A DNA stretch of 32,000 nucleotides from Cupriavidus necator (GTDB taxonomy: Bacteria > Pseudomonadota > Gammaproteobacteria > Burkholderiales > Burkholderiaceae), in contig NZ_CP066018.1 in assembly GCF_016127575.1 (NCBI RefSeq), forward strand, positions 150,001-182,000, written 5' to 3'. Under the pieces are notes generated by a model. The model was not told the DNA's origin and made no database searches. It saw only the letters and a program-made list of their open reading frames with translations. Shown here in pieces: positions 1-14,645 of this stretch. The position numbers were made by a program, and so were the translations under genes. Each line of letters opens with the position of its first letter. Within the stretch, counting starts at the first letter, position 1.

Positions 1-2791
1 GCGCATGATGGAATTCAAGTGGCCGGCCGCGCTCGCCTATGTGCGCGCCAACCGCCTGAACCACAACGTGATCGAGGGATCCAACGACCGCCTTGGCATC
101 ATCGCCAGCGGCAAGGCCTACAGCGACACGCGCCAGGCCCTGCTCGACCTTGGGCTTGACGATGCCACCTGCCGCGCGCTCGGCGTCCGGCTGCACAAGG
201 TCAGCGTGGTATGGCCGCTGGAGCCCGACAGCGTGCGCGACTTTGCGCGCGGGCTGCGCGAGATCCTGGTGGTCGAGGAAAAGCGTCCCGTGATCGAGCA
301 GCAGTTGAAGGACGAGCTGTACCACTACCCACCCACCTCCCGCCCGGCCGTCTTTGGCAAGTACCACCACGCCGACGGCGCCGGCGGCGAATGGAGCCAC
401 CGCAAGCCGGCCGAGGACTGGCTGCTGCGCGCCAAGGCCGATCTCTCTCCCGCGCTGGTGGCCAAGGCCATCGCGCAGCGGCTCAAGGCGCTGGGCGTGC
501 CGGCCGACGTGGCCGCGCGCATGGACGTGCGCCTGCAGGAAATCGACGCCAAGGAACGCGCCACCGCCCAGGGCGATGCGCGCGCCACCGACCGCCTCCC
601 GTGGTTCTGCCCGGGCTGCCCGCACAACACCAGCACCCGCGTGCCGGAAGGCTCGGTCGCGACGGCTGGCATCGGCTGCCATGGCATGGTGGTGTGGATG
701 GACCGCTCGACCACCTCATGGTCGCAGATGGGCGGCGAAGGCGTGCACTGGATGGGCCAGGCACCCTTCAGCAAGCGCACCCATATGTTCGCCAACCTGG
801 GCGACGGCACCTACAACCACTCCGGCCTGCTGGCGGTGCGCCAGTCGATCCACGCCGGCGTGAACCTGACCTACAAGATCCTGTTCAACAGCGCCGTGGC
901 CATGACCGGCGGCCAGCCGGTGGACGGCCAGCTCGATGTACCGGCGATGTCACGTGAACTGGCCGCTGAAGGCGCCCGGCAGATCATCGTTGTCACGGAC
1001 GAGCCGGGCAAGTACAAGGGTGTCGACGACCTCGCAGCCGGCGTCACCGTGCGCCACCGCGACGAACTCGATACCGTGCAGCGCGAGCTGCGCGAGGTGT
1101 CCGGCGTGACCGTGATCATCTACGACCAGGCCTGCGCCACCAAGAAGCGCCGCGAGCGCAAGCGCGGCACCATGATCGATCCGGCCAGGCGCGTGGTCAT
1201 CAACGAGCTGGTGTGCGAAGGTTGCGGCGATTGCTCCGTGCAAAGCAACTGCCTGGCGGTGCAGCCGGTCGAGACCGACTTCGGGCGCAAGCGCAAGGTC
1301 AACCAGGACACCTGCAACAAGGACTTCTCCTGCACCAAGGGCTTCTGCCCGAGCTTTGTCACGGTCGAAGGCGGCCAACTGAAGAAGCCCGCCACCACCG
1401 CGAGCGGCCGCGCCACGCCCCCGGCCATCCCGATGCCCACGCTGCCGGACGCCGGCAAGCCGCGGCGCATCGTGGTGGCGGGGATCGGCGGCACCGGCAT
1501 CGTCACCATCGGCGGCGTGCTGGGCATGGCCGCCCACCTCGAAGGCAAGGGCGTGATCACCCAGGACGCGACCGGCATGGCGCAGATGGGCGGGGCCACC
1601 TGGAGCCACATCCAGATCGCCGCCAGCCCGGACGCCCTGCATGCGAGCCGCGTCGACATGGCAATGGCCGACCTGGTGATCGCCTGCGATACCGTGGTCG
1701 CGGCCAGCAAGACCTCGCTGGCCGCGATGTCGCCGGCACGGACCTATGTGGTGCTGAACAGCCATATCACCCCCACCGCGGCTTTTGTCCGCAACCCCGA
1801 CTGGGATCCCCAGGTCGGCGAGGCCGTGGGCAGGATCGCCCAGTCCGTCGGCAAGGGCCAGCTCGCCGGCTTCGACGCCGAACAGGTGGCGAAGCAGCTG
1901 CTCGGCCAGTCGATCTACGCCAACCTGCTGCTGCTCGGCTATGCCTGGCAGAAAGGCAAGGTCCCGCTGTCGCACGCGGCCCTGATGCGCGCCATCGAAC
2001 TCAACGGCGTGCAGGTCGACAGCAACAAGGCGGCCTTCGAATGGGGCCGGCTGTGCGCCCACGATATGTCGAAGATACCCGCGCAGCCGGCCGGCTCGCA
2101 GGTGATCCAGTTCGTGCGCAAGGTGCCGGTGGAGGAACTCATGAAGAAGCACGCCGAATTCCTGACCGGCTACCAGAACCGGACCTACGCGGCGCAATAC
2201 GAGTCGTTTGTCGGACGCGTAAAGGCGGCGGAATCGGTCGTCGGCGGCACCCGGCTGACCGAAGCCGTGGCCCGCTCGCTGTTCAAGCTGATGGCCTATA
2301 AAGACGAATATGAGGTGGCTCGCCTGCATACCGGAGCCGCATTCCGCCAGCAGATCGCGTCGATGTTCGAAGGCAAGGTCCGGCTGGTGCACCACCTGGC
2401 CCCTCCCCTGTTTGCGCGGAAGAGCCAGGCCGGCGAACTGGTCAAGGGCACCTATGGCCCGTGGATGCGCACCGCATTCGGTGTACTGGCCCGCTTCAAG
2501 GGCCTGCGCGGCACGGCATTCGATCCTTTCGGCTACACCCTGGAGCGCAAGGAGGAGCGGGCCCTGATCGGTGAATACCGGCGCAGCGTGGAAGCCTTGC
2601 TGCCGGCACTTTCCGCGCAAAAGCTCGAGCTGGCGCTGGAGATTGCCCGGCTGCCGCAGGAGATCCGCGGCTACGGCCACGTCAAGGCGCGCAACCTGGC
2701 GGCCACGCGCACGCGCTGGGAGCGGCTGATGGCGCAATGGCATCAAGGGAGCGCAAAGCCGGGACAAATCAAAGCTACTGAAGCGGCATAA
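1..2791 (+). CDS. indolepyruvate ferredoxin oxidoreductase family protein (fused IorA/IorB type), 5'-truncated by window edge
   Basis: ORF 5..2791 is open to the window start in the same frame. It has a 4Fe-4S ferredoxin-type motif (CEGCGDCSVQSNC), a TPP-enzyme-like segment (GCHGMVVWMD...NLGDGTYNHSG) and an IorB-like Rossmann start (RIVVAGIGGTGIVT). From memory these fused proteins are well over 1100 aa, so a few hundred N-terminal residues lie upstream of the window. Confidence 0.9.
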   Translation, partial: RMMEFKWPAALAYVRANRLNHNVIEGSNDRLGIIASGKAYSDTRQALLDLGLDDATCRALGVRLHKVSVVWPLEPDSVRDFARGLREILVVEEKRPVIEQQLKDELYHYPPTSRPAVFGKYHHADGAGGEWSHRKPAEDWLLRAKADLSPALVAKAIAQRLKALGVPADVAARMDVRLQEIDAKERATAQGDARATDRLPWFCPGCPHNTSTRVPEGSVATAGIGCHGMVVWMDRSTTSWSQMGGEGVHWMGQAPFSKRTHMFANLGDGTYNHSGLLAVRQSIHAGVNLTYKILFNSAVAMTGGQPVDGQLDVPAMSRELAAEGARQIIVVTDEPGKYKGVDDLAAGVTVRHRDELDTVQRELREVSGVTVIIYDQACATKKRRERKRGTMIDPARRVVINELVCEGCGDCSVQSNCLAVQPVETDFGRKRKVNQDTCNKDFSCTKGFCPSFVTVEGGQLKKPATTASGRATPPAIPMPTLPDAGKPRRIVVAGIGGTGIVTIGGVLGMAAHLEGKGVITQDATGMAQMGGATWSHIQIAASPDALHASRVDMAMADLVIACDTVVAASKTSLAAMSPARTYVVLNSHITPTAAFVRNPDWDPQVGEAVGRIAQSVGKGQLAGFDAEQVAKQLLGQSIYANLLLLGYAWQKGKVPLSHAALMRAIELNGVQVDSNKAAFEWGRLCAHDMSKIPAQPAGSQVIQFVRKVPVEELMKKHAEFLTGYQNRTYAAQYESFVGRVKAAESVVGGTRLTEAVARSLFKLMAYKDEYEVARLHTGAAFRQQIASMFEGKVRLVHHLAPPLFARKSQAGELVKGTYGPWMRTAFGVLARFKGLRGTAFDPFGYTLERKEERALIGEYRRSVEALLPALSAQKLELALEIARLPQEIRGYGHVKARNLAATRTRWERLMAQWHQGSAKPGQIKATEAA

Positions 2792-3859: not shown

Positions 3860-3888
3860 CCAGCCTGGACCGTAACGGTTCAGGCTGG
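3860..3888. terminator. long hairpin between convergent genes (candidate bidirectional terminator)
   Basis: CCAGCCTGGACC-GTAAC-GGTTCAGGCTGG forms a 12-bp stem with one G.T wobble. It lies between the Bug stop (3843) and overlaps the SulP stop codon (3880-3882). Flanking T-tracts are weak. Confidence 0.5.
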
Positions 3889-5610
3889 CTTGTCGACGTA
3901 GTCATCCACCGCACTGCCCACCGTGGGGTGGAAGTTCTTGTCGCCGATCGCTTCCATCAGCTCGAAGCGCTTGAGCTTGTCGCGCACCGGGTCCTTCATC
4001 TCGGCAAAATGCAGCGCGATGCCGCGCTCGCGCAGGATGCCGCTCAGTTCACGCAGCATGTCGGCCGAGGTGACGTCGACGCTGGTCACCGGTTCGGCCG
4101 CCACCACCACCCTGCGCACGGGTGTCGGCGATTCGTCGATCGCTTCCATCAGCCGCGCCTGGAACAGCTCGGCATTGGCGAAGAACAGCGGCGCATCCCA
4201 GCGGAACAGCAGCAGCCCGTCGATGCGCTCGGCATCCGGGTAGCGCTTGGTGTCGTGGTAGCCGCGCAGGCCCTCGACACGGCCGAGCACGGCATAGTGT
4301 GGCCGCCAGCCGTCCCACAGGAATTCGATCACTGCAAGGACCACGGCCAGGATGATCCCCGGGATCGCCCCGAACACGGCAACCGCGGCAAAGCAGACCA
4401 TCGACAGCCAGAACTCCCACTGCTGGATGCGGTAGATGCGCTTCAGGTCCGCGAACTCGAACAGGCCTATGGCCGCCGCGATCACCACCGCCGCCAGTGC
4501 GCTGTTTGGCAGGTACTGCAGCAGGTTGGGCGCGAACATCAGCAGCAGCGCCACGGCCAGTGCGCCCACGACTCCGGTGAGCTGGGTCTTCGCGCCCGCG
4601 GCTTCGGCCACCGGCGTACGGGACGCGCTGCTGCTGATCGGAAAGCCCTGGAAGAATCCCGCGGCCAGGTTGGCGGCGCCCAGGCCGACCATCTCCTGGT
4701 TCGGGTCGACCCGGGTGTTGGTGCGCGCGGCAAAGGTGCGCGACAGCACGCTGGTATCCGCGAACGAGATCAGCGCGACGGCAATGCCGCCCAGCAGGAT
4801 CGCAACCAGGTCCGCGCCACTGACCCAGGGCACGACAAAGCCCGGCAGCCCTTGCGGGGTCTTGCCCAGCACTTTCACCCCGTTCTGGTCGAGATCGAAC
4901 ATGCTGACGGCCACCGTCGCGACGATCACGGCAATCAGGATGCCGGGCACGCGCTCGAAGCGCTTCAGCAACAGGATCAGCACCAGGCTGCCCGCGCCGA
5001 CCGCAAAGCTGTACCAGTTGGTCTCGCCGCCCAGGATCGCCCGGCCGAGGCTGATCATCTCCCGCAGCGGGCCGGCGTCTTCGATCGAGATGGCGAACAG
5101 CTTGGGCAACTGGCTGACCAGCACGGTGAGCGCGATCCCGTTCATGTAGCCGTAGCGGATCGGCTTGGACAGCAATTCGGTAATGAACCCCAGCCGCAAC
5201 AGCCCCATCACGATGCAGACCACGCCCGACACGATCGCCATCATGCTGGCCACCATGACCGCGCGCCCCGGATCGCCGCCGGAGACCTGCAACACCACCG
5301 CCAGGATTGGCGCCGCCAGCGCCGAATCCGGCCCCAGCACGAGGATCCGGCTCGGGCCAAGCAGGGCATACACCAGCAGCGGGACCATGGTGGCGTAGAG
5401 CCCGTAGACACCGGGCACGCCGGAGGCCTCGGCGTAGGCGATGCCGACCGGCACCAGCATGGTCGTGAGCACCAGACCGGCGGCGAGGTCTTTCGGCAGC
5501 CAGGCCGGCTGATAGTTCTTCAACACCAGCAGTCCCGGGAGCCAGCGCAACCATCCGGGTGCCTTGTCGACTTCGCGCTGCGCGGCGGGGGTCAGGTTCT
5601 GGGGCTGCAT
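3880..5610 (-). CDS. SulP family inorganic anion transporter with C-terminal STAS domain
   Basis: Multi-TM body (LAAGLVLTTMLVPVGIAYAEASGVP..., GPDSALAAPILAVV...) plus a STAS-like tail (VVVAAEPVTSVDVTSADMLREL...ALHFAEMKDPVRDKL). Start chosen at Met89 of the track ORF (MQPQNLTPAAQ..., ATG at 5610). The upstream 88 aa are Arg/Cys-rich and not protein-like. No clear SD, so start confidence is lower than gene confidence. Confidence 0.88.
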   Translation of the reverse strand: MQPQNLTPAAQREVDKAPGWLRWLPGLLVLKNYQPAWLPKDLAAGLVLTTMLVPVGIAYAEASGVPGVYGLYATMVPLLVYALLGPSRILVLGPDSALAAPILAVVLQVSGGDPGRAVMVASMMAIVSGVVCIVMGLLRLGFITELLSKPIRYGYMNGIALTVLVSQLPKLFAISIEDAGPLREMISLGRAILGGETNWYSFAVGAGSLVLILLLKRFERVPGILIAVIVATVAVSMFDLDQNGVKVLGKTPQGLPGFVVPWVSGADLVAILLGGIAVALISFADTSVLSRTFAARTNTRVDPNQEMVGLGAANLAAGFFQGFPISSSASRTPVAEAAGAKTQLTGVVGALAVALLLMFAPNLLQYLPNSALAAVVIAAAIGLFEFADLKRIYRIQQWEFWLSMVCFAAVAVFGAIPGIILAVVLAVIEFLWDGWRPHYAVLGRVEGLRGYHDTKRYPDAERIDGLLLFRWDAPLFFANAELFQARLMEAIDESPTPVRRVVVAAEPVTSVDVTSADMLRELSGILRERGIALHFAEMKDPVRDKLKRFELMEAIGDKNFHPTVGSAVDDYVDKPA

Positions 5611-5813
5611 GGGTCGAGTTATGCCCTGGGCAGGCAAGGAGTATGCATCGACTATAGGAGGTCGCGCTTCGACAAATGTGCATCGAAGCAAAGAAAAAAG
5701 GGATTTTGGATTGCGCTGGCGGCACCAGGCCGAGGCTCCCGCGAGCCGCTCCGATGCTGCATCGCAACACCTCCTCGTGCTGCCACGCTGCCTGCGCAGG
5801 TCTGCGCGCTGTC

Positions 5814-5879
5814 GACAACCATCAGTTTCTGACAATCCCGCGACGGGCACATATGATGGTTGTCTGGCGGGCATGCCCG
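5814..5879. promoter_or_regulatory. nested inverted repeats in the SulP / secreted-protein divergent intergenic region
   Basis: Perfect 11-bp arms GACAACCATCA (5814-5824) and TGATGGTTGTC (5854-5864) enclose a small CCCG-CGA-CGGG hairpin. They are followed by the 12-bp perfect palindrome CGGGCATGCCCG (5868-5879), 24 nt before the ATG at 5904. Confidence 0.35.
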
Positions 5880-6336: not shown

Positions 6337-9300
6337 TCAGCCCTTCAGTTCGATCAGCAGATCCTTCGCCGCCACGCGATCCCCCTGCTGAACATGGACT
6401 GCGGCGATCTCGCAGTCCCGCTCCGCCGCGATATGGGTTTCCATCTTCATCGCCTCCAGCGCCAGCAGCGTCGTGCCCGCGGCCACGCGCTGCCCCGGCT
6501 GCACCGCCACCGTCACGATCGAGCCCGGCATGGGCGCGGCGACATGCAGCGGATTGTCGGGTTCGGCAACCGGACGGCCATGGCGCGCTGCCGCCGCTTG
6601 CGTGGTGCTGCGCTGCTCGACCAGCGTGGTGCGCGACTGCCCGTTCAGCTCGAACTGGACCTTGATGACACCCTCTTCGGCATCGGGGTGCGTGCCTTGC
6701 AGCGAGACCAGCAGGGTCTTGCCGGCAGCGATGTCGATCGCCACTTCTTCCTGCGGCTGCAGGCCGTACAGGTATGCCGGCGTGGGTACCACCGAGGTGT
6801 CGCTGTAGTTGCGCACATGCGCGTGGTACTCGCCGGCCTGCTTCGGGTACATCAGGTACGAAGCCAGCTGGCGGTCGTCGAGCGGCTGCTCGCACGCCGC
6901 TTCGGCCGCGGCGCGCGCCGCGTCGAGGTCGACCGGCGGGATCTGGTCGCCGGGCCGGTACGGCACGGGCGGCTCGCCGCGCAGCACCTTGCGCGACAGT
7001 TCCGCGGGGAAGCCGTCCGGCGGAAAGCCCAGCTCGCCCTTGAACAGCGACACCACCGATTCAGGGAAGGCAGTCTCCCTGGCGGGATCGCACACATCGG
7101 CGGCGCTCAGGTCGTTGGCCACCATCATCAAGGCCAGGTCGCCGACCACCTTGGACGTCGGCGTCACCTTGACGATGTCGCCAAACATCTGGTTGACCTC
7201 GGCATAGGCCCGCGACACCTCGGTCCAGCGATGCTCGATGCCGAGCGAGCGCGCCTGCTCGCGCAGGTTGGTGTACTGGCCGCCGGGCATCTCGTGGCGG
7301 TACACGTCGGCGGTGCCGGCGCGGATTTCGGATTCGAACGGCGCGTAGTAGCGGCGCACCCCTTCCCAGTACATCGACGCCTCGTGCAGGCGCTCCAGGC
7401 TGAGGCCGGGATCGCGCTCGCTGCCGGCCAGGGCCGCGGCGATGCTCGACAGGTTGGGTTGCGAGGTCAGCCCGCTCATGGCGTCGAGCGCGCCGTCGAC
7501 CGCATCGCAGCCGGCCTCGATCGCGGCCAGCGCCGAAGCGGCCGAGATGCCGCTGGTATCGTGGGTATGGAAATGCACCGGCAGCCCGGTCTCTTCCTTG
7601 AGCGCCCTGACCAGTGCCGCCGCGGCCTGCGGACGGCAGATGCCGGCCATGTCCTTGATGCCCAGCACGTGCACGCCGGCCTGCTTCAGCTCGCGCGCGA
7701 TGCCTACGTAGTACTTCAGGTCGTATTTGGCGCGCGACTTGTCGAACAGGTCGCCGGTATAGCAGATCGCGCCTTCGCACAGCGCGCCGCTCTCGCCGAC
7801 AGCATCGATCGCCACGCGCATGTTGCGCACCCAGTTCAGTGAATCGAACACGCGGAACACATCCACGCCGGCGCTGGCCGCCTGGCGCACGAAGAAGCGC
7901 ACCACGTTGTCCGCATAATTGGTGTAGCCAACCGCGTTGGAGCCGCGCAGCAGCATCTGGAACAGCACGTTGGGAACGCGCTCGCGCAGTTGCTCAAGGC
8001 GCTGCCACGGGTCTTCCTTGAGGAAGCGCAGCGCCACGTCGAAGGTGGCGCCGCCCCAGCACTCCAGCGAGAACAGCTGCGACAGTTCGCGCGCATAGAA
8101 CGGCGCGATCGGCAGCATGTCGGCGGTGCGCATGCGCGTGGCGAACAGCGACTGGTGCGCGTCGCGCATGGTGGTATCGGTCAGCAGCACCTGCTTCTGC
8201 TCCAGCATCCAGCGCGAGAACTTCTCCGCGCCCAGCTCGCGCAGCCGGTCGCGCGTACCGTAGGGCAGCGCGCCGCCGGTGTCGAAGGCGGGCAGCACCG
8301 GTGCGGGCAGCGGCAGCGATGGCAGCGTGCGGCCGCTCATCTCCGGGTGCCCGTTGACGCTGACCTCGCCCAGGTAGCGCAGCAGCTTGGTGGCGCGGTC
8401 CAGGCGCTTGGTGAACGCCAGCAGTTCCGGCGTCAGGTCGATAAAGCGCGTGGTGACGTCGCCGGACCGGAACGAGGGATGGTTGATGACGTTCTCGAGG
8501 AACTGCAGGTTGGACGCGACGCCGCGGATGCGGAACTCGCGCAGCGCGCGGTCCATGCGCCGGATCGATTCGGGCGCGGTCGGCGCCCAGGTGGTAACCT
8601 TGACCAGCAGCGAATCGTAGTACGGCGTGATCACCGCGCCGCCGTAGGCGGTGCCGGCGTCCAGGCGCACGCCGAAGCCGGCCGCGCTGCGGTAGGCAGT
8701 GAGGCGGCCGTAGTCCGGCAGGAACCCGTTCTCCGGGTCCTCGGTGGTGATCCGGCATTGCAGCGCGTGACCGTTGAGCGAAATCGCTTCCTGCACCGGC
8801 ACGCCCGCGGCGCGCACGACGATCTCGCCGTTCTCATTGCGCGTGTTCTCGGTCATGCCGAGATGGCCGCCTTCGGTCACGCGGATCTGCGCCTTGACGA
8901 TATCGATCCCGGTGACCATCTCCGTGACCGTGTGCTCGACCTGGATGCGCGGATTGACCTCGATGAAGTAGAACTGGCCGGAGTCGGCATCCATCAGGAA
9001 CTCGACCGTACCGGCATGCGTGTAGCCGACCGCGCGCATCAGCCGCAGGGCCGATTCGCACAGCGCGGCCCGGCCGGCATCGTCGAGGTATGGCGCGGGC
9101 GCCCGCTCCACCACCTTCTGGTTGCGCCGCTGCACGGTACAGTCGCGCTCATAGAGATGCACGAGGTTGCCGTGCGTGTCGCCGAGCACCTGCACTTCGA
9201 CATGGCGCGCGTTGCGCACCAGCTTCTCGACATACACCTCGTCGTTGCCGAACGCAGCCAGCGCCTCGCGCCGCGCCGCGGCGAGCGCCCCCTCAAGGTC

Positions 9301-9840
9301 CTGCTCGCGTTCCAGGACCCGCATGCCGCGTCCGCCGCCGCCCCAGCTTGCCTTGAGCATCAGCGGATAGCCGATGCCGGCGGCGAGGCGCTTGCACGTG
9401 TCCAGGTCATGCGGCAGCGGATCGGTTGCCGGCATCACCGGCACGCCCGCGTCGATCGCCGCGTTGCGCGCCGCCACCTTGTTGCCAAGCTTGCGCATGA
9501 CCTCGGGCGACGGGCCGATCCAGCGGATACCCGCGTCGATCACGGCCTGCGCGAAGTCCGGGTTCTCTGAAAGGAAGCCATAGCCCGGATGAATGGCGTC
9601 GACCTTCGCCTGCCTGGCAATGCGCAGGATATCGTCGATGTCGAGGTAAGCCGCCAGTGGCTTCTTGCCCTCGCCGACCAGGTAGCTCTCATCGGCCTTG
9701 AAGCGATGGAGCGCGAGCCGGTCTTCCTTCGAATAGATTGCCACCGTGCGCACGTTCATCTCGGCGGCCGCGCGCATCACGCGGATCGCGATCTCGGAAC
9801 GGTTGGCAATCAGCAGGGAGCGGATAGGGGCGTAGTCCAT
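6337..9840 (-). CDS. pyc: pyruvate carboxylase (single-chain: biotin carboxylase + carboxyltransferase + BCCP)
   Basis: N-terminal biotin carboxylase/ATP-grasp region (IRSLLIANRSEIAIRVMRAA..., MLKASWGGGGRGMR). HMGL-like carboxyltransferase region (LLTDTTMRDAHQSL). C-terminal biotinyl site LEAMKMET. Start set at MDYAPIRSLL (ATG 9840); the 23-aa upstream extension to 9909 is not typical. Confidence 0.95.
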   Translation of the reverse strand: MDYAPIRSLLIANRSEIAIRVMRAAAEMNVRTVAIYSKEDRLALHRFKADESYLVGEGKKPLAAYLDIDDILRIARQAKVDAIHPGYGFLSENPDFAQAVIDAGIRWIGPSPEVMRKLGNKVAARNAAIDAGVPVMPATDPLPHDLDTCKRLAAGIGYPLMLKASWGGGGRGMRVLEREQDLEGALAAARREALAAFGNDEVYVEKLVRNARHVEVQVLGDTHGNLVHLYERDCTVQRRNQKVVERAPAPYLDDAGRAALCESALRLMRAVGYTHAGTVEFLMDADSGQFYFIEVNPRIQVEHTVTEMVTGIDIVKAQIRVTEGGHLGMTENTRNENGEIVVRAAGVPVQEAISLNGHALQCRITTEDPENGFLPDYGRLTAYRSAAGFGVRLDAGTAYGGAVITPYYDSLLVKVTTWAPTAPESIRRMDRALREFRIRGVASNLQFLENVINHPSFRSGDVTTRFIDLTPELLAFTKRLDRATKLLRYLGEVSVNGHPEMSGRTLPSLPLPAPVLPAFDTGGALPYGTRDRLRELGAEKFSRWMLEQKQVLLTDTTMRDAHQSLFATRMRTADMLPIAPFYARELSQLFSLECWGGATFDVALRFLKEDPWQRLEQLRERVPNVLFQMLLRGSNAVGYTNYADNVVRFFVRQAASAGVDVFRVFDSLNWVRNMRVAIDAVGESGALCEGAICYTGDLFDKSRAKYDLKYYVGIARELKQAGVHVLGIKDMAGICRPQAAAALVRALKEETGLPVHFHTHDTSGISAASALAAIEAGCDAVDGALDAMSGLTSQPNLSSIAAALAGSERDPGLSLERLHEASMYWEGVRRYYAPFESEIRAGTADVYRHEMPGGQYTNLREQARSLGIEHRWTEVSRAYAEVNQMFGDIVKVTPTSKVVGDLALMMVANDLSAADVCDPARETAFPESVVSLFKGELGFPPDGFPAELSRKVLRGEPPVPYRPGDQIPPVDLDAARAAAEAACEQPLDDRQLASYLMYPKQAGEYHAHVRNYSDTSVVPTPAYLYGLQPQEEVAIDIAAGKTLLVSLQGTHPDAEEGVIKVQFELNGQSRTTLVEQRSTTQAAAARHGRPVAEPDNPLHVAAPMPGSIVTVAVQPGQRVAAGTTLLALEAMKMETHIAAERDCEIAAVHVQQGDRVAAKDLLIELKG

Positions 9841-9932
9841 GGGATGCAGGGAAGCGAACCAGCCGCGCGCAACCGCCACGGCAGGATCAGGTGATCGGGG
9901 ATGCAGCACGGGCGCAAGGCTTGCCCGGGCTG

Positions 9933-10324: not shown

Positions 10325-10351
10325 ATTTCAGAAATGAAATTTTTCATTTCA
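10325..10351. promoter_or_regulatory. AT-rich palindrome cluster (TTTCA/TGAAA pentamers), candidate operator
   Basis: Perfect 9-bp arms GAAATGAAA (10331-10339) and TTTCATTTC (10342-10350) with a 2-nt spacer. They overlap a second palindrome ATTTC-A-GAAAT (10325-10335). The cluster lies in a conspicuously AT-rich island within a GC-rich genome. Confidence 0.3.
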
Positions 10352-10464
10352 TGGGTGCCGCGGCCAATGCGCGATGCAGCACCTGTGCCTCGCGGCAACC
10401 GGGAGGGCCGGCGTGGGCAACGTGGCCAGGCTGACGACGCCCGCCCGGCCACGAATGCAGGCCT

Positions 10465-11184
10465 TCAGCAGGCCGCGGCCTGGGGCGAAGCCAGTGCGCA
10501 GTATGCGGGGGCGCCGGCCGTGGCAATGCGGGCGCAGTACGCCGGCTCTTCCGCCCTGGCGATACGTGCGCAATACGCGGGCTCTTCCGCCCTGGCCATG
10601 CGCGCGCAGTACGCAGGTTCGTCCGTCCTGGCGATGCGTGCACAGTACGCGGCCTCTTCCGCCTTGGCCATGCGTGCGCAGTACGCGGCCTCTTCCACCT
10701 TGGCCATGCGCGCGCAGTACGCCGGTGCCTCCGTCCTGGCAATGCGTGCGCAGTACGCGGGCTCGTCGGCCGCTGCCCGGGCACAATATGCGGCAGACGT
10801 CAGCGGGCTGCCGAATTCGCGCATGCTCAGCGCATCGCTCGCAGCGGCCATTTGCAGGAGGCGGGCCTCGTCCTCCGGACCGTCGATGCCAACGTAGGGG
10901 TCATGGTGAAGGACATAGCCGAAGATGCGCTCGCAATCGCTCGCATAGCGCCTGGTGTCCAGGATGTGGGCATGCCAGAAGGCATCCACCTGCTCGCTGG
11001 GGACGACGGGCGTGTCCGGATGCTTCGCCGCCAGCTTGAGGAATTGCCGGTAGCCGCTCTCCGCCTGCTCCAGCGATTCCGGCGACCAATGCGCATGCTT
11101 CTGATGCAGCAGCTTGGCCTTCATCCTGGAAAAGTCCAGGGCGTCGATGGCCTGCCACATGATTTCAATAGTACGGTCCTGCAT
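10465..11184 (-). CDS. DUF1399/GRDP-like (glycine-rich-domain-containing-protein-like) His-rich domain fused to nine tandem AYCAR 12-residue repeats
   Basis: SD GGGAG lies 7 nt before the ATG at 11184. The N-terminal ~125 aa carry HQKHAHW and FWHAHILDTRRYASDCERIFGYVLHHDPY, matching the WHxHxL..Y..DC...G..L.HD signature as I recall it for PF07173. The C-terminal ~110 aa are AYCARxAxxEEP units and the protein ends ...AYCALASPQAAAC. Confidence 0.8.
   Translation of the reverse strand: MQDRTIEIMWQAIDALDFSRMKAKLLHQKHAHWSPESLEQAESGYRQFLKLAAKHPDTPVVPSEQVDAFWHAHILDTRRYASDCERIFGYVLHHDPYVGIDGPEDEARLLQMAAASDALSMREFGSPLTSAAYCARAAADEPAYCARIARTEAPAYCARMAKVEEAAYCARMAKAEEAAYCARIARTDEPAYCARMARAEEPAYCARIARAEEPAYCARIATAGAPAYCALASPQAAAC
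10496..10794 (-). repeat. tandem 36-bp coding repeat array (8 units in 36-bp register, one 33-bp step, then a terminal partial unit)
   Basis: Plus-strand units begin with GCGCAGTACGC at 10496, 10532, 10568, 10604, 10640, 10676, 10712 and 10748 (exact 36-bp phase) and at 10781 (33-bp step). Units differ at roughly 3-6 positions each. Confidence 0.95.
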
Positions 11185-11237
11185 GATCTAGCTCCCTGTT
11201 ATTGGACTGCTTAAGCACGCACCGGACTGACGGGCAG

Positions 11238-14200
11238 TCAGGCGCGCATCGGTTGCGGTCCATGCTCGAGAGCGGGACCGTTCTCCATGCGGCTGGCCAG
11301 GAAGGCAGTGATCTTCGCCGGCGGCAGCGGATGGCTGAAGTAGTAGCCCTGCACTTCGTCGCAGCCTTCGCGGCGCAGGAACTCGAGTTGCACCTCGTTC
11401 TCCACGCCTTCGGCGACCACTTCGAGGCCAAGCCGGTGGCCAAGGCCGATCACCGCGCTGGTAATCTGCGTGTCGCTGCGGCTTTCCGGTATGTAGCGGA
11501 CGAAGCTGCCGTCGATCTTGACCGTATCGATCGGGAAGCGGCTCAGGTAGGCGAGCGAGGAGTAGCCAGTGCCGAAGTCGTCGATCGCCAGCCGGACACC
11601 GGTGCGCTTCAGGCGCGAGAGCCAGCTGGACGCCTGTTCGGCATCGCGCATGACCATGCTCTCGGTGAGTTCAAGCTCCAGCAGGTTGCCGGGCAGCCCG
11701 GCTTGCCGCAGGGCATCGATGATGGTCAGCCTGAGCGACTTGTCGGCGAACTGCCGTGCCGAAAGATTGACTGAAACACGCACCGGCGGCAGTCCCTGCG
11801 CGCGCCATGCGGCATTCTGCCGGCACGCTTCGCGCAGGGCCCAGGCACCGATCTCGACAATGGCGCCGCTCTGCTCCGCGAAGGGAATGAAATCTCCGGG
11901 CATGACCAGGCCGAGTTCCGGGTGGCGCCAGCGGATCAGTGCCTCGACCGCCGTGCACGCTCCCGACGCGAGCGCAATGCGCGGCTGGTAGTAGAGGATG
12001 AATTCGTCCTGCTCGAGCGCGCGGTGCAGGTGCGACTCCATGTCGATGCGCCGCTGCAGCGACGCGCTCATGCCCCGGCAGTAGAACTGGTAGCCGTTCT
12101 TGCCGAGCTGCTTGGCACCATACATGGCCAGGTCGGCATGCTTGAGCAGGGTCTGCCAGTCGCTGCCGTCCTCGGGGAAGGAACTGATGCCGATGCTTGC
12201 CGTCATGCGCAGTTCCGACTCGTTGACGACGAAGCCTGGCGCGAGCGCAGCCTGGATCCGGGCAATGGTCCGGTCCAGGATCGTCGAATCGCCCTTGGGG
12301 TCCAGCAGCACGACGAATTCATCGCCGCCGAAGCGGGTGATCAGCTCCACCTCCTCCAGGCTGCCGCGCAACCGGTCGGCCATCTCGCGCAGCACGATGT
12401 CGCCGGCATTGTGGCCGATGGTGTCGTTCACGACCTTGAATTCGTCCAGGTCCACGAAGATGACATGCAGGGCCTGGCCGCTGGCGCGGGCACGGGTCAG
12501 CGCCTGCTCGAACTCGGCCTTGAACATGAGGCGGTTGGGCAGCCCGGTAAGGGCATCGTGATTGGCGATGAAGCGCAGGTTTTCCTCGGCCTGGCGCCGC
12601 AGCAGGAAGTGCCCGGTCTGATTGGCAATGCCGCTCGCCATCGCGAGCGCATGCGTATCGGGGCTGCGCTTGCTGCGGGAATAGAGTTCGACCACGCCGA
12701 GGCTCACGTGGCCCCGGCTCAGCGGGAAGGCGAACACCGTCCGGATACCGCCCGCGTCGAGCCACCTGGCTTGCGGATGCCGGGCCATCGCGCTGCGGCT
12801 TGCATACCATTGCGGCGCCGGCAAGACCGCGGCGCCGGCCGGCCCTGCAGGGCGCTCGGCGAGCCACGGCTGCAGCGTCTTGACGCGGGCCAGGTAGACC
12901 GGCGGCAGCTTCAGCCCCTGGCTGTCATCGCCCGGCCAGAAGGCACCGGCCTCCCAGTCCATGCCTTCGAGCAGCGTGTGGACAATCCCCTCCAACACCT
13001 CGATCTCGCTGGTGGCGGTGGCCAGGTGCAGGGCAATCTGGTGTTCCTGCGTCCTGGCCTGCTCGGCGGACCTGCGCTGGCTGATGTCCTGCGCGGTGCC
13101 CCGCAGCACTGCGCTGTCCGGCGCTCCATGCGCGTGGCCGATCAGGTGCAGCCAGCCCCGGCGTCCGCGCCGCGACCGGTACGGGCACTCGAACTCGAAC
13201 GGCTGGCGATCCTGCAGGGCTGTCCGCATCCTTTCCCGCAGCACGGCGCGATGGCCGGCGTCGATCGCCTGGAACAGCGCTTCCGGAGTCGGCTTGTCGC
13301 CGCGCAAGCCTAGCAGGCGCGCCATTTCCTGGGAAAAGTGCGCGATGTCCTGGTCCAGGTCGATGCGCCAGTCGCCCAGGTGGGCAATCTGCTGCGCCTC
13401 GGCAAGCGCGGCCTGGCTGTCGCGCAGGCTGTGCGTCATCTGGTCGGCCACGGCCACGGCGCGCGCGCGCGAACTCGACAACGCGTAGGCCAGCCACCCC
13501 AGCAGCACGCTGATGATCAGGCCGGAAATCACCACCAGCCCCGGCAGGTAGCGCTGCGGACCACTGATGGCCTTGGCATCGGCAGCAAACGCAATCACCC
13601 AGCGCCGTCCGCCGAAATTCCGCACCACGCTCTTGGCCAGGTCATGCTGGCCCGGGGCCGCCTGGGCGTCCGCCAGTGCGGTCGCGCCATGCGCGGCACT
13701 GGCGTGGACGGTGCTGCCGCCAGCAACCCGGCTGCGTTCCCTGGCCGCCAGGCCGGTCACGCTGTCATAGAGCAGGTTGGCTGCAGAGAGCGGAACCGCC
13801 GCCTGCGCGAAGTCTCCGGCATCATGCACGCGGAACCGGATCCGGCGCAGGTTCTCATTGCTGACCAGGTCCTTCAGCAGGTCGTCCACCCGGATCCCCG
13901 CGCCAACCGAGCCGACATAGGCGCGCCGGCGCGCTTCCACGGAATCCAGGTCGGGCACCTTGCGGTACACCGGCAGGCGCAGCGCGATGCCCACATGCGG
14001 GTTCTTTGCCTCGCTGAAGATCAGGCGCCCGCTGCTGACTGGCTGCCCGGTATCGCGCGCGCGTTCCAGCGCGGCCAGGCGGCGTGGCTCGGCGCCCATG
14101 TCGATGCCGATCGACGCCAGGTTGAGGGCGAGCGGTTCGACATAGGTCAGCACGAAATGCCCCGGCCGCTGGCCGGGAGGGCGGACGTTGAACGTCACGC

Positions 14201-14645
14201 CGGCCTCGCGCAGGATCGGATCGCTGCGCTGCCGGGCGACAAAGGCGTCGATCTCGGCCGCCGGCACGTAGGGCGCGTAGTTCAGCGTCTGGAAACCGGG
14301 ATAGCGCTGCGGCAGGTTCAAGCCGCTGACGAAATCGCGAAACTCGCCGCGCGAGACATGGTCGCTGGCGCCGAACAGCGCCTGCATGGTCACCAGAACA
14401 TCGGTATAGAGGCGGATCCGTGTATCGATCTGCTGGATCACGTCGCCGGTATCGTTCTCAAAACGCAGGCGGACGTCCTTCTCAAGCAGGTCGGTGCAGA
14501 ACGCATAGACGACAGCCGTCGTCATCACGCCAAGCAGCAAGGTGCCCGCGGTGATGGTGCGCGACCCAAGGCGTCCAAGCGGGCGCAGCGCGCGCGCAAG
14601 CGTCTGGCGCAAGATTGTTTCCCCCCGGATGTCGATGGCAACCAT
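11238..14645 (-). CDS. CHASE-PAS-GAF-GGDEF-EAL sensory c-di-GMP turnover protein
   Basis: N-terminal TM segment plus a CHASE-like periplasmic domain (SRGEFRDFVSGLNLPQRYPGFQTLNYAPYV), then a second TM segment and PAS/GAF-like regions. Intact GGDEF (RFGGDEFVVLL; no RxxD I-site 5 aa upstream). Intact EAL signature set (EALIRW, DDFGTGYSSL, KIDGSFV, EGVE, QGYYFSHP). Confidence 0.93.
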   Translation of the reverse strand: MVAIDIRGETILRQTLARALRPLGRLGSRTITAGTLLLGVMTTAVVYAFCTDLLEKDVRLRFENDTGDVIQQIDTRIRLYTDVLVTMQALFGASDHVSRGEFRDFVSGLNLPQRYPGFQTLNYAPYVPAAEIDAFVARQRSDPILREAGVTFNVRPPGQRPGHFVLTYVEPLALNLASIGIDMGAEPRRLAALERARDTGQPVSSGRLIFSEAKNPHVGIALRLPVYRKVPDLDSVEARRRAYVGSVGAGIRVDDLLKDLVSNENLRRIRFRVHDAGDFAQAAVPLSAANLLYDSVTGLAARERSRVAGGSTVHASAAHGATALADAQAAPGQHDLAKSVVRNFGGRRWVIAFAADAKAISGPQRYLPGLVVISGLIISVLLGWLAYALSSSRARAVAVADQMTHSLRDSQAALAEAQQIAHLGDWRIDLDQDIAHFSQEMARLLGLRGDKPTPEALFQAIDAGHRAVLRERMRTALQDRQPFEFECPYRSRRGRRGWLHLIGHAHGAPDSAVLRGTAQDISQRRSAEQARTQEHQIALHLATATSEIEVLEGIVHTLLEGMDWEAGAFWPGDDSQGLKLPPVYLARVKTLQPWLAERPAGPAGAAVLPAPQWYASRSAMARHPQARWLDAGGIRTVFAFPLSRGHVSLGVVELYSRSKRSPDTHALAMASGIANQTGHFLLRRQAEENLRFIANHDALTGLPNRLMFKAEFEQALTRARASGQALHVIFVDLDEFKVVNDTIGHNAGDIVLREMADRLRGSLEEVELITRFGGDEFVVLLDPKGDSTILDRTIARIQAALAPGFVVNESELRMTASIGISSFPEDGSDWQTLLKHADLAMYGAKQLGKNGYQFYCRGMSASLQRRIDMESHLHRALEQDEFILYYQPRIALASGACTAVEALIRWRHPELGLVMPGDFIPFAEQSGAIVEIGAWALREACRQNAAWRAQGLPPVRVSVNLSARQFADKSLRLTIIDALRQAGLPGNLLELELTESMVMRDAEQASSWLSRLKRTGVRLAIDDFGTGYSSLAYLSRFPIDTVKIDGSFVRYIPESRSDTQITSAVIGLGHRLGLEVVAEGVENEVQLEFLRREGCDEVQGYYFSHPLPPAKITAFLASRMENGPALEHGPQPMRA

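What the first reader, a model, noticed from the sequence alone, without database searches (positions are those of the whole stretch)
10465..11184. His-rich DUF1399/GRDP-like domain fused to nine tandem AYCAR cassettes: candidate self-contained multi-core peptide or Cys/Tyr redox-metal protein
A well-initiated minus-strand ORF (SD GGGAG, 7 nt spacer) encodes about 125 aa with two His clusters, HQKHAHW and FWHAHILDTRRYASDCERIFGYVLHHDPY. The second matches the WHxHxL..Y..DC...G..L.HD signature I recall for the functionally uncharacterised DUF1399 / glycine-rich-domain-containing-protein-like family. The protein then switches abruptly to head-to-tail units: AYCARAAADEP, AYCARIARTEAP, AYCARMAKVEEA, AYCARMAKAEEA, AYCARIARTDEP, AYCARMARAEEP, AYCARIARAEEP, AYCARIATAGAP, AYCALASPQAAAC-stop. 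Every tail Cys except the C-terminal one sits in an A-Y-C-A context. Spacing between Cys is 12 residues (11 for the first unit). Most units end in an acidic pair, and the protein ends in Cys. A putative metal-binding domain fused to many copies of a short conserved peptide follows the same design logic as fused, autocatalytic multi-core RiPP precursors such as plant BURP-domain cyclases. No separate maturase, protease or exporter gene is adjacent, so any chemistry would have to be intrinsic or encoded elsewhere. Alternative readings are a Cys/Tyr-based redox or metal-buffering tail, or a helical repeat scaffold. I know of no characterised bacterial member.
Basis: partly seen in the sequence, partly recalled or inferred. 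Interest (0 to 1): 0.8.

Follow-up and report, generated by a model that had tools for sequence, protein, structure and literature searches.

The report
Repeat-tailed GRDP-like protein paired with CHASE sensors
This is a conserved bacterial protein that is actually made. It has a small helical head with four unchanging histidines and a fast-changing tail of short repeats, each built around an aromatic residue plus a cysteine or serine, and its gene sits next to one particular family of membrane signal sensors (CHASE) in every lineage with enough flanking DNA to check. That link makes it a good lead for a new part of a signalling pathway, but it gives no sign of being a peptide-natural-product precursor.

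Summary
A 239-aa minus-strand gene (10465-11184) with a GGGAG Shine-Dalgarno site 7 nt upstream encodes a helical N-domain (aa 1-130), then 9 head-to-tail AYC units spaced 12 residues apart, ending in a C-terminal Cys. The gene is transcribed from the minus strand. The N-domain belongs to the PF27765 (UCP032817-like) family, a bacterial relative of the plant GRDP/DUF1399 domain (Pfam GRDP-like hit just under the curated cut-off; atlas structural match to a plant GRDP cluster). Its invariant residues include a 4-His cluster: W-H-x-H … D-C … H-H-x-P. Across 227 homologues the tails vary in unit number and sequence by lineage, but they keep an A-[Y/F/W]-[C/S] unit. Cys after the aromatic in 46% of cases; some lineages use Ser throughout. 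The strongest new finding: in 9 of 9 loci that carry a soluble-tail homologue and have enough flanking DNA, the gene sits next to a CHASE-domain sensor. These sensors belong to one CHASE subfamily (35-88% identity to each other, against 24-33% for an unlinked CHASE paralogue in the same genome), even though their output domain switches between GGDEF-EAL (c-di-GMP) and HisKA_3 (two-component kinase). The peptide-natural-product (RiPP) reading has no support. Most likely this is an accessory partner of that sensor pathway, with a putative metal site and a multivalent tail; how it acts is not shown.

The parts
10465..11184 (-). Complete CDS of the PF27765/GRDP-like repeat-tail protein (239 aa)
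   Evidence: ORF and translation; homologues 99-100% identical; stranded RNA on the minus strand
11192..11196 (-). Shine-Dalgarno GGGAG, 7 nt before the ATG at 11184
   Evidence: sequence
10795..11184 (-). N-domain (aa 1-130): all-helical, six helices, AF2 pLDDT 91; PF27765 / GRDP-like (PF07173, 22.1 bits)
10894..10977 (-). Invariant motif aa 70-97: W70 H71 x H73 … Y80 … D83 C84 … G89 … H93 H94 x P96 Y97 (putative 4-His metal or ligand site)
   Evidence: invariant in alignments A1 (30 seqs) and A2 (19 distant seqs); present in membrane-type relatives too
10465..10794 (-). Low-complexity tail: 9 units A-Y-C-A-R/L-x7, ending in C-terminal Cys; low AF2 confidence (pLDDT <50), probably disordered
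10494..10771. DNA tandem repeat (36-bp period x7.7; 108-bp higher-order period x2.3)
   Evidence: Tandem Repeats Finder
11238..14645 (-). Linked sensor 53 nt upstream on the same strand: TM-CHASE-TM-GAF-GGDEF-EAL (1135 aa); a member of the CHASE subfamily tied to this gene family
   Evidence: Pfam; topology; synteny and CHASE identity

Best explanation
The gene encodes a soluble, expressed member of the PF27765 (UCP032817-like) family, a bacterial relative of the plant GRDP/DUF1399 domain. Its helical N-domain carries an invariant four-His cluster (W-H-x-H … D-C … H-H-x-P-Y) that probably binds a metal ion or a small ligand. A probably disordered tail of repeated 'stickers' follows: A-aromatic-Cys units, which is Ser in other lineages. 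Genes of this kind are coupled, over and over, to one subfamily of CHASE-domain membrane sensors, whatever the sensor's output (diguanylate cyclase/phosphodiesterase or HisKA_3 kinase). That points to an accessory protein of this CHASE pathway: expressed with it, and possibly docking on it or acting downstream, with the tail as a multivalent interaction region and the His site as a sensing or catalytic centre. Shown: the gene, its transcription, the family, the invariant residues, the conserved tail motif and the conserved CHASE coupling. Inferred: metal binding, disorder of the tail, and any physical or regulatory link to the sensor.
For: Family membership and the invariant His site come from 163 Burkholderiales homologues (all PF27765), a deeper set of 227 across Alpha- and Gammaproteobacteria, Planctomycetota and Armatimonadetes, and invariant columns in alignments A1/A2. 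The tail motif holds up across that set: 46% of tail aromatics are followed by Cys against a 4.9% background, and the aromatic is preceded by Ala in 53%. Within the window gene, the AYCAR positions vary only synonymously while spacer positions vary non-synonymously. CHASE coupling was found in every informative locus. CHASE-GGDEF-EAL sits directly upstream on the same strand in: this window, C. taiwanensis (L020), Trinickia violacea (L001) and Paraburkholderia kururiensis (L002/L003). CHASE-HisKA_3 sits directly upstream in G277 (L015) and in two metagenome contigs (L024, L025). CHASE-PAS-HisKA_3 is divergent in two Noviherbaspirillum loci (L004, L022). The linked CHASE domains are 35-88% identical to each other, while the unlinked CHASE paralogue in the same genome is 24-33% identical to all of them; by a rough estimate, chance adjacency to one of the genome's two CHASE genes is about 0.1%. 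The gene is expressed: stranded RNA reads map to its strand and depth rises above the upstream gene.
Against: No experiment shows binding to the sensor or any effect on its signalling. The predicted complex (N-domain vs juxtamembrane + GAF) gave no answer. CHASE domains face the periplasm while this protein has no signal peptide, so any direct contact would have to be cytoplasmic. Metal binding is inferred from conserved His alone. The N-domain model has no solved structural relative (Foldseek none; VIA-align best Z 4.1), and residue distances could not be measured. The membrane-type relatives with Gly-Cys tails are not coupled to CHASE (PurD neighbour), so the coupling is specific to the soluble repeat-tail branch.
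Confidence: 0.45

Rival explanations
1. A self-contained, autocatalytic multi-core RiPP-like precursor. The His-rich N-domain, perhaps copper-dependent like BURP-domain cyclases, crosslinks Tyr/Cys inside its own repeated tail cores, and the modified units may later be released.
For: Architecture: a conserved His-rich domain, two His pairs (HxH, HH) echoing the two HH pairs of BURP cyclases (PMC12186524), and repeated units with an aromatic residue, under purifying selection.
Against: No BURP sequence or fold similarity. The same N-domain occurs with Ser-only tails, non-repetitive tails and Gly-Cys membrane tails. The spacers carry no protease motif and no processing or export gene is nearby. 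The conserved neighbour is a sensor, not a maturase. The tail units vary in sequence between lineages except for the A-Ar-[C/S] triplet.
Confidence: 0.08
2. A redox- or metal-buffering protein. The tail Cys (with Tyr) and the N-domain His bind Cu or Zn, or form reversible disulfides, protecting the cell or signalling redox state (Cupriavidus is a metal-tolerant genus).
For: 9 tail Cys plus a C-terminal Cys, an invariant His cluster and an invariant D-C in the N-domain; a PF27765 cluster fused to a 4Fe-4S ferredoxin domain in Bacteroidota.
Against: Many lineages replace the tail Cys with Ser, so Cys chemistry in the tail cannot be the general function. A Cys every 12 residues in a disordered tail is not a typical metal-binding spacing. 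No metal-resistance genes are nearby.
Confidence: 0.12
3. The tail is a sticker-spacer low-complexity region that makes the protein self-assemble or form condensates, perhaps at the sensor, as plant glycine-rich GRDP/GRP tails are proposed to do. The N-domain may only target or cap the assembly.
For: Regularly spaced aromatic 'stickers' flanked by small residues (A-Ar-C/S) in Ala/charged/Pro spacers; AF2 predicts no structure for the tail; unit number varies freely between species.
Against: No direct evidence. The composition is Ala-rich rather than Gly/Ser-rich, as in classic prion-like domains.
Confidence: 0.15

Closest known systems
PF27765 (UCP032817-like) / 'glycine-rich domain-containing protein' family of bacteria
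   Same: The same family: every homologue carries PF27765, with the same invariant N-domain residues.
   Different: Nothing is characterised; no paper names the family. This protein sits in the soluble, repeat-tail, CHASE-coupled branch.
Plant glycine-rich domain proteins (AtGRDP1/AtGRDP2; DUF1399, PF07173)
   Same: A related N-terminal domain: a Pfam GRDP-like hit just below the cut-off, an atlas structural match to a Streptophyta GRDP-like cluster, and relatives that carry PF07173. The domain is followed by a low-complexity Cys-containing tail; plant GRDP2 carries [CG]GGGCGG[GC] repeats (PMC4299439), closely matching the Gly-Cys tails of the membrane-type bacterial relatives.
   Different: This protein has no RNP-1 motif and no Gly-rich tail. 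Its tail is Ala-rich A-Y-C units. Plant GRDPs are involved in ABA/auxin-linked development (PMC4299439) and are not known to be linked to CHASE sensors.
Plant BURP-domain peptide cyclases (fused and split BpCs)
   Same: Works-like only: a conserved His-rich metal site (two His pairs in BURP) next to repeated aromatic-containing core peptides (PMC12186524).
   Different: No sequence or structural homology. The BURP domain is about 230 aa; this N-domain is an all-helical 130-aa domain. BURP cores sit N-terminal to the domain and are matured into natural products; here there is no evidence of modification or release.
CHASE-domain sensor kinases and diguanylate cyclases (e.g. plant cytokinin-receptor-type CHASE)
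   Same: This gene is consistently coupled to one CHASE subfamily.
   Different: The protein itself has no CHASE, kinase or GGDEF domain; it is a separate, soluble accessory gene.

Membership tests
PF27765 UCP032817-like (bacterial GRDP-like) | Family HMM match over the N-terminal domain | tested here: met
   All 163 homologues carry precomputed PF27765; ESM-atlas cluster with PF27765 at 97%. The hmmscan copy dated 2025 lacks PF27765, so it was not rescored directly.
PF07173 GRDP-like (DUF1399) | Pfam hit at or above the curated gathering score | tested here: not met
   22.1 bits against a gathering threshold of 22.7, E=2.7e-4, aa 37-83. Relatives in the same superfamily do pass (PF07173 precomputed on P0127-P0138).
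PF07173 GRDP-like (DUF1399) | Shared fold with plant GRDP-like proteins | tested here: inconclusive
   Atlas TM 0.44 to a Streptophyta PF07173 cluster: suggestive but below 0.5.
BURP-domain peptide cyclase | BURP domain (Pfam PF03181) with CH-motif copper His pairs | tested here: not met
   No BURP hit at E<1; no structural match to BURP in Foldseek or VIA-align.
BURP-domain peptide cyclase | Core peptides that are crosslinked and processed | not testable with these tools
   Needs mass spectrometry of the expressed protein.
Multi-core RiPP precursor (general) | Tailoring, processing or export genes encoded nearby | tested here: not met
   Neighbours are pyruvate carboxylase and a CHASE-GAF-GGDEF-EAL sensor. 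Across relatives the conserved neighbour is a CHASE sensor.
Multi-core RiPP precursor (general) | Conserved core sequence with protease-cleavage motifs between cores | tested here: not met
   Units keep only A-Ar-[C/S] and spacers vary by lineage; no dibasic or other recurrent cleavage motif.

The most novel reading that the evidence does not exclude
The protein is a self-modifying metalloprotein: its four-His N-domain uses a metal (e.g. Cu) to crosslink the Tyr/Cys (or Tyr/Ser) of its own repeated tail. The modified protein, or a released fragment, is the signal or co-factor that the coupled CHASE sensor subfamily reads. That would be a bacterial, single-gene analogue of the plant BURP-cyclase logic, tied to a sensor.
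Probability: 0.05. Interest if true: 0.85.

Novelty: new member of a known kind. Interest (0 to 1): 0.45.

Why it matters
PF27765/UCP032817 and its plant relative DUF1399 (GRDP) have no known biochemical function. The gene is expressed and tied to one subfamily of CHASE sensors across several bacterial lineages, even when the sensor's output module changes. That gives a testable entry point: the family may be an unrecognised component of CHASE signalling (cytokinin-receptor-type sensors in plants; unknown ligands in bacteria). The constant A-aromatic-Cys/Ser tail motif on a fast-evolving repeat is unusual and worth a biochemical look. If the self-modification reading were right, it would be a new bacterial single-gene peptide-crosslinking system.

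Tried and rejected
Foldseek against PDB with the full-length model found nothing: the disordered tail dominated. VIA-align against the full model matched the low-confidence tail β-strands to β-barrels, which is meaningless. Folded alone, the N-domain (pLDDT 91) has no Foldseek hit and a best VIA Z of 4.1, i.e. no known solved relative. A sequence-profile search of PDB found nothing. The ESM atlas has no model of the tail and nothing near it by features. Searching for longer fused homologues with the full profile gave a single 597-aa protein. Papers: nothing on PF27765 or UCP032817, nor on bacterial 'glycine-rich domain-containing protein' with Cupriavidus. Promoter and terminator consensus scans found nothing near the gene. 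Complex prediction of the N-domain (A2) with the linked sensor's juxtamembrane + GAF region (A4) gave 'no answer', score 0.00: not evidence either way. Considered and dropped: the overlapping plus-strand ORFs (10334-10897, 10374-11039) as the real product, because RNA strand, homologue conservation and the N-domain family all point to the minus strand. Also dropped: a sequence-similarity link to fungal DUF3328 dikaritin oxidases (no HxxHC motifs) and to graspetide ATP-grasp systems (no ligase gene).

Full report
Observation. The window holds a 239-aa minus-strand ORF at 10465-11184, with GGGAG at 11196-11192 sitting 7 nt before the ATG. Its last ~109 residues are 9 head-to-tail units: AYCARAAADEP, then AYCAR… x7, then AYCALASPQAAAC-stop. 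Cys spacing is 11 then 12, and the protein ends in Cys. At the DNA level this is a 36-bp tandem repeat (7.7 copies, 78% identity) with a 108-bp higher-order period. The gene is transcribed. Stranded RNA-seq reads map about 5:1 to the minus strand, and depth is about 500 over the gene against about 100-130 in the upstream gene. 14 RNA runs from 4 studies hold the sequence. The plus-strand ORFs through the repeat are antisense artefacts.

Family of the N-domain. Pfam scores PF07173 GRDP-like (DUF1399) at 22.1 bits, just below the 22.7 cut-off. All 163 homologues found carry PF27765 'UCP032817-like' and are annotated 'glycine-rich domain-containing protein'. They come from Cupriavidus, Trinickia, Paraburkholderia and Noviherbaspirillum; a deeper profile search reaches Rhodobacteraceae, sphingomonads, Planctomycetota and Armatimonadetes, some scoring PF07173 too. 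The ESM-atlas shape search links the N-domain to PF27765 clusters (TM 0.51) and to a plant GRDP-like PF07173 cluster (TM 0.44). It also finds PF27765 fused to a 4Fe-4S ferredoxin domain and eukaryotic ubiquitin-like fusions. Plant AtGRDP2 has that domain followed by an RNP-1 motif and a Cys-containing Gly-rich region (PMC4299439). Alone, AlphaFold2 folds the N-domain confidently as a six-helix domain (pLDDT 91, pTM 0.86) with no solved structural relative. The invariant residues across 19 diverse N-domains are W70, H71, H73, T77, Y80, C84, G89, H93, H94 and P96, giving the motif W-H-x-H … Y … D-C … G … H-H-x-P-Y. The same motif persists in membrane-type relatives with Gly-Cys tails. Four invariant His in two pairs suggest a metal or ligand site, but I could not measure their distances in the model.

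The tail across the family. In this clade every unit is A-[Y/F/W]-C; unit number varies from 0 to 16 and the period from 11 to 14 aa, by lineage. Over 211 soluble-tail homologues, 922 of 1997 tail aromatics are followed by Cys (tail background 4.9%) and 1061 are preceded by Ala. Several lineages use Ser instead of Cys in every unit: AYSGRVA (L006), AFSVRAP and AFSGAQT, AYSYTPP. Others use AWC. Many tails end in a conserved C-terminal R-P-x-L motif (GKGRPxL or FxxxRPRL), which this clade lacks. Within this gene, the AYCAR positions of the 8 full units differ only synonymously (Tyr TAT/TAC, Cys TGT/TGC, Ala and Arg codons), while spacer positions 6-12 differ non-synonymously. That argues for constraint on the motif. 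The full-length AF2 model leaves the tail unstructured (pLDDT 30-42).

Context. In the window, the gene sits 53 nt downstream of a same-strand TM-CHASE-TM-GAF-GGDEF-EAL protein (11238-14645) and upstream of pyruvate carboxylase. The same coupling recurs in every informative locus examined:
- CHASE-GGDEF-EAL directly upstream on the same strand: C. taiwanensis (L020), Trinickia violacea (L001; 20 nt), Paraburkholderia kururiensis (L002/L003).
- CHASE-HisKA_3-HATPase directly upstream on the same strand: G277 of another Burkholderiales family, whose tail is the Ser form (L015), and two metagenome contigs with 2-3 tandem paralogues of differing tails (L024, L025).
- CHASE-PAS-HisKA_3 divergent: Noviherbaspirillum (L004, L022).

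The linked CHASE domains are 35-88% identical to each other, whatever their output module. The genome's other, unlinked CHASE protein (C2, L023) is only 24-33% identical to any of them. So one CHASE-sensor subfamily travels with this gene family while the output swaps between c-di-GMP metabolism and a NarL-type kinase. The membrane-type relatives with Gly-Cys tails are not CHASE-linked; in G160 and G308 they sit beside PurD. The genome holds one copy.

Interpretation. The best-supported reading is that this is a soluble accessory component of a specific CHASE signalling module. A conserved helical domain with a probable metal or ligand site is joined to a probably disordered, multivalent tail with repeated aromatic 'stickers'. 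The physical or regulatory link to the sensor is inferred, not shown; a predicted-complex test gave no answer and carries no weight.
- no BURP sequence or fold;
- cores are not conserved beyond A-Ar-[C/S] and many lineages lack the Cys;
- no cleavage motifs or processing genes;
- the same domain occurs with unrelated tails.
It remains a low-probability rival; mass spectrometry would settle it. The rivals of a Cys/metal buffering tail and a sticker-spacer assembly tail are both open.

Novelty and interest. The protein is a member of a known but uncharacterised Pfam family, so it is not new as a kind. The recurring coupling to one CHASE-sensor subfamily, and the conserved A-aromatic-[C/S] tail grammar, appear to be undescribed, as far as the library search goes. 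They turn an orphan domain family, shared with plant GRDPs, into a testable signalling question. I score interest moderate (0.45).

Noticed in passing
window 10334-10897 (+) and 10374-11039 (+): Long plus-strand ORFs through the GC-rich repeat (AQYAGSS… and PPWPC… repeats) are antisense artefacts of the real minus-strand gene; stranded RNA shows minus-strand transcription.
   Followed up: yes
L015 10914-12482 (-), L024 8663-9595 (-), L026 3648-4553 (-): An NAD-dependent epimerase/dehydratase (PF01370/RmlD-like) lies within about 1 kb of the PF27765 repeat-tail gene in 3 of about 10 loci examined. Possibly a second, weaker association.
   Followed up: no
L024 4989-8027 (+), L025 3370-5348 (+), L026 19-2115 (+): In metagenome contigs the PF27765 gene occurs as 2-3 tandem paralogues whose tails use different repeat types (AFSTRVP, AFSVRAP, AWCSVT, AYSYTPP), all downstream of one CHASE-HisKA_3 sensor.
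   Followed up: partly
many homologue C-termini (e.g. P0107, P0109, P0118, P0123, P0133): A conserved C-terminal motif (GKGRPxL or F[FY]SxRPRL) ends many repeat tails but is absent from the Cupriavidus clade, which instead ends in a terminal Cys.
   Followed up: no
ESM atlas cluster: A PF27765 N-domain cluster in Bacteroidota is annotated as fused to a 4Fe-4S ferredoxin domain, and eukaryotic clusters fuse it to ubiquitin-like (Rad60-SLD) domains.
   Followed up: no
window 11138-11271: RNA depth (minus strand) rises within the 53-nt intergenic region and the upstream gene's 3' end, suggesting a separate promoter for this gene. No sigma-70 consensus was found.
   Followed up: partly
window 6337-9909 (-), 3880-5874 (-), 5-2791 (+): Nearby housekeeping genes: pyruvate carboxylase, SulP sulfate permease with STAS, and a large POR/DUF6537 oxidoreductase.
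   Followed up: no
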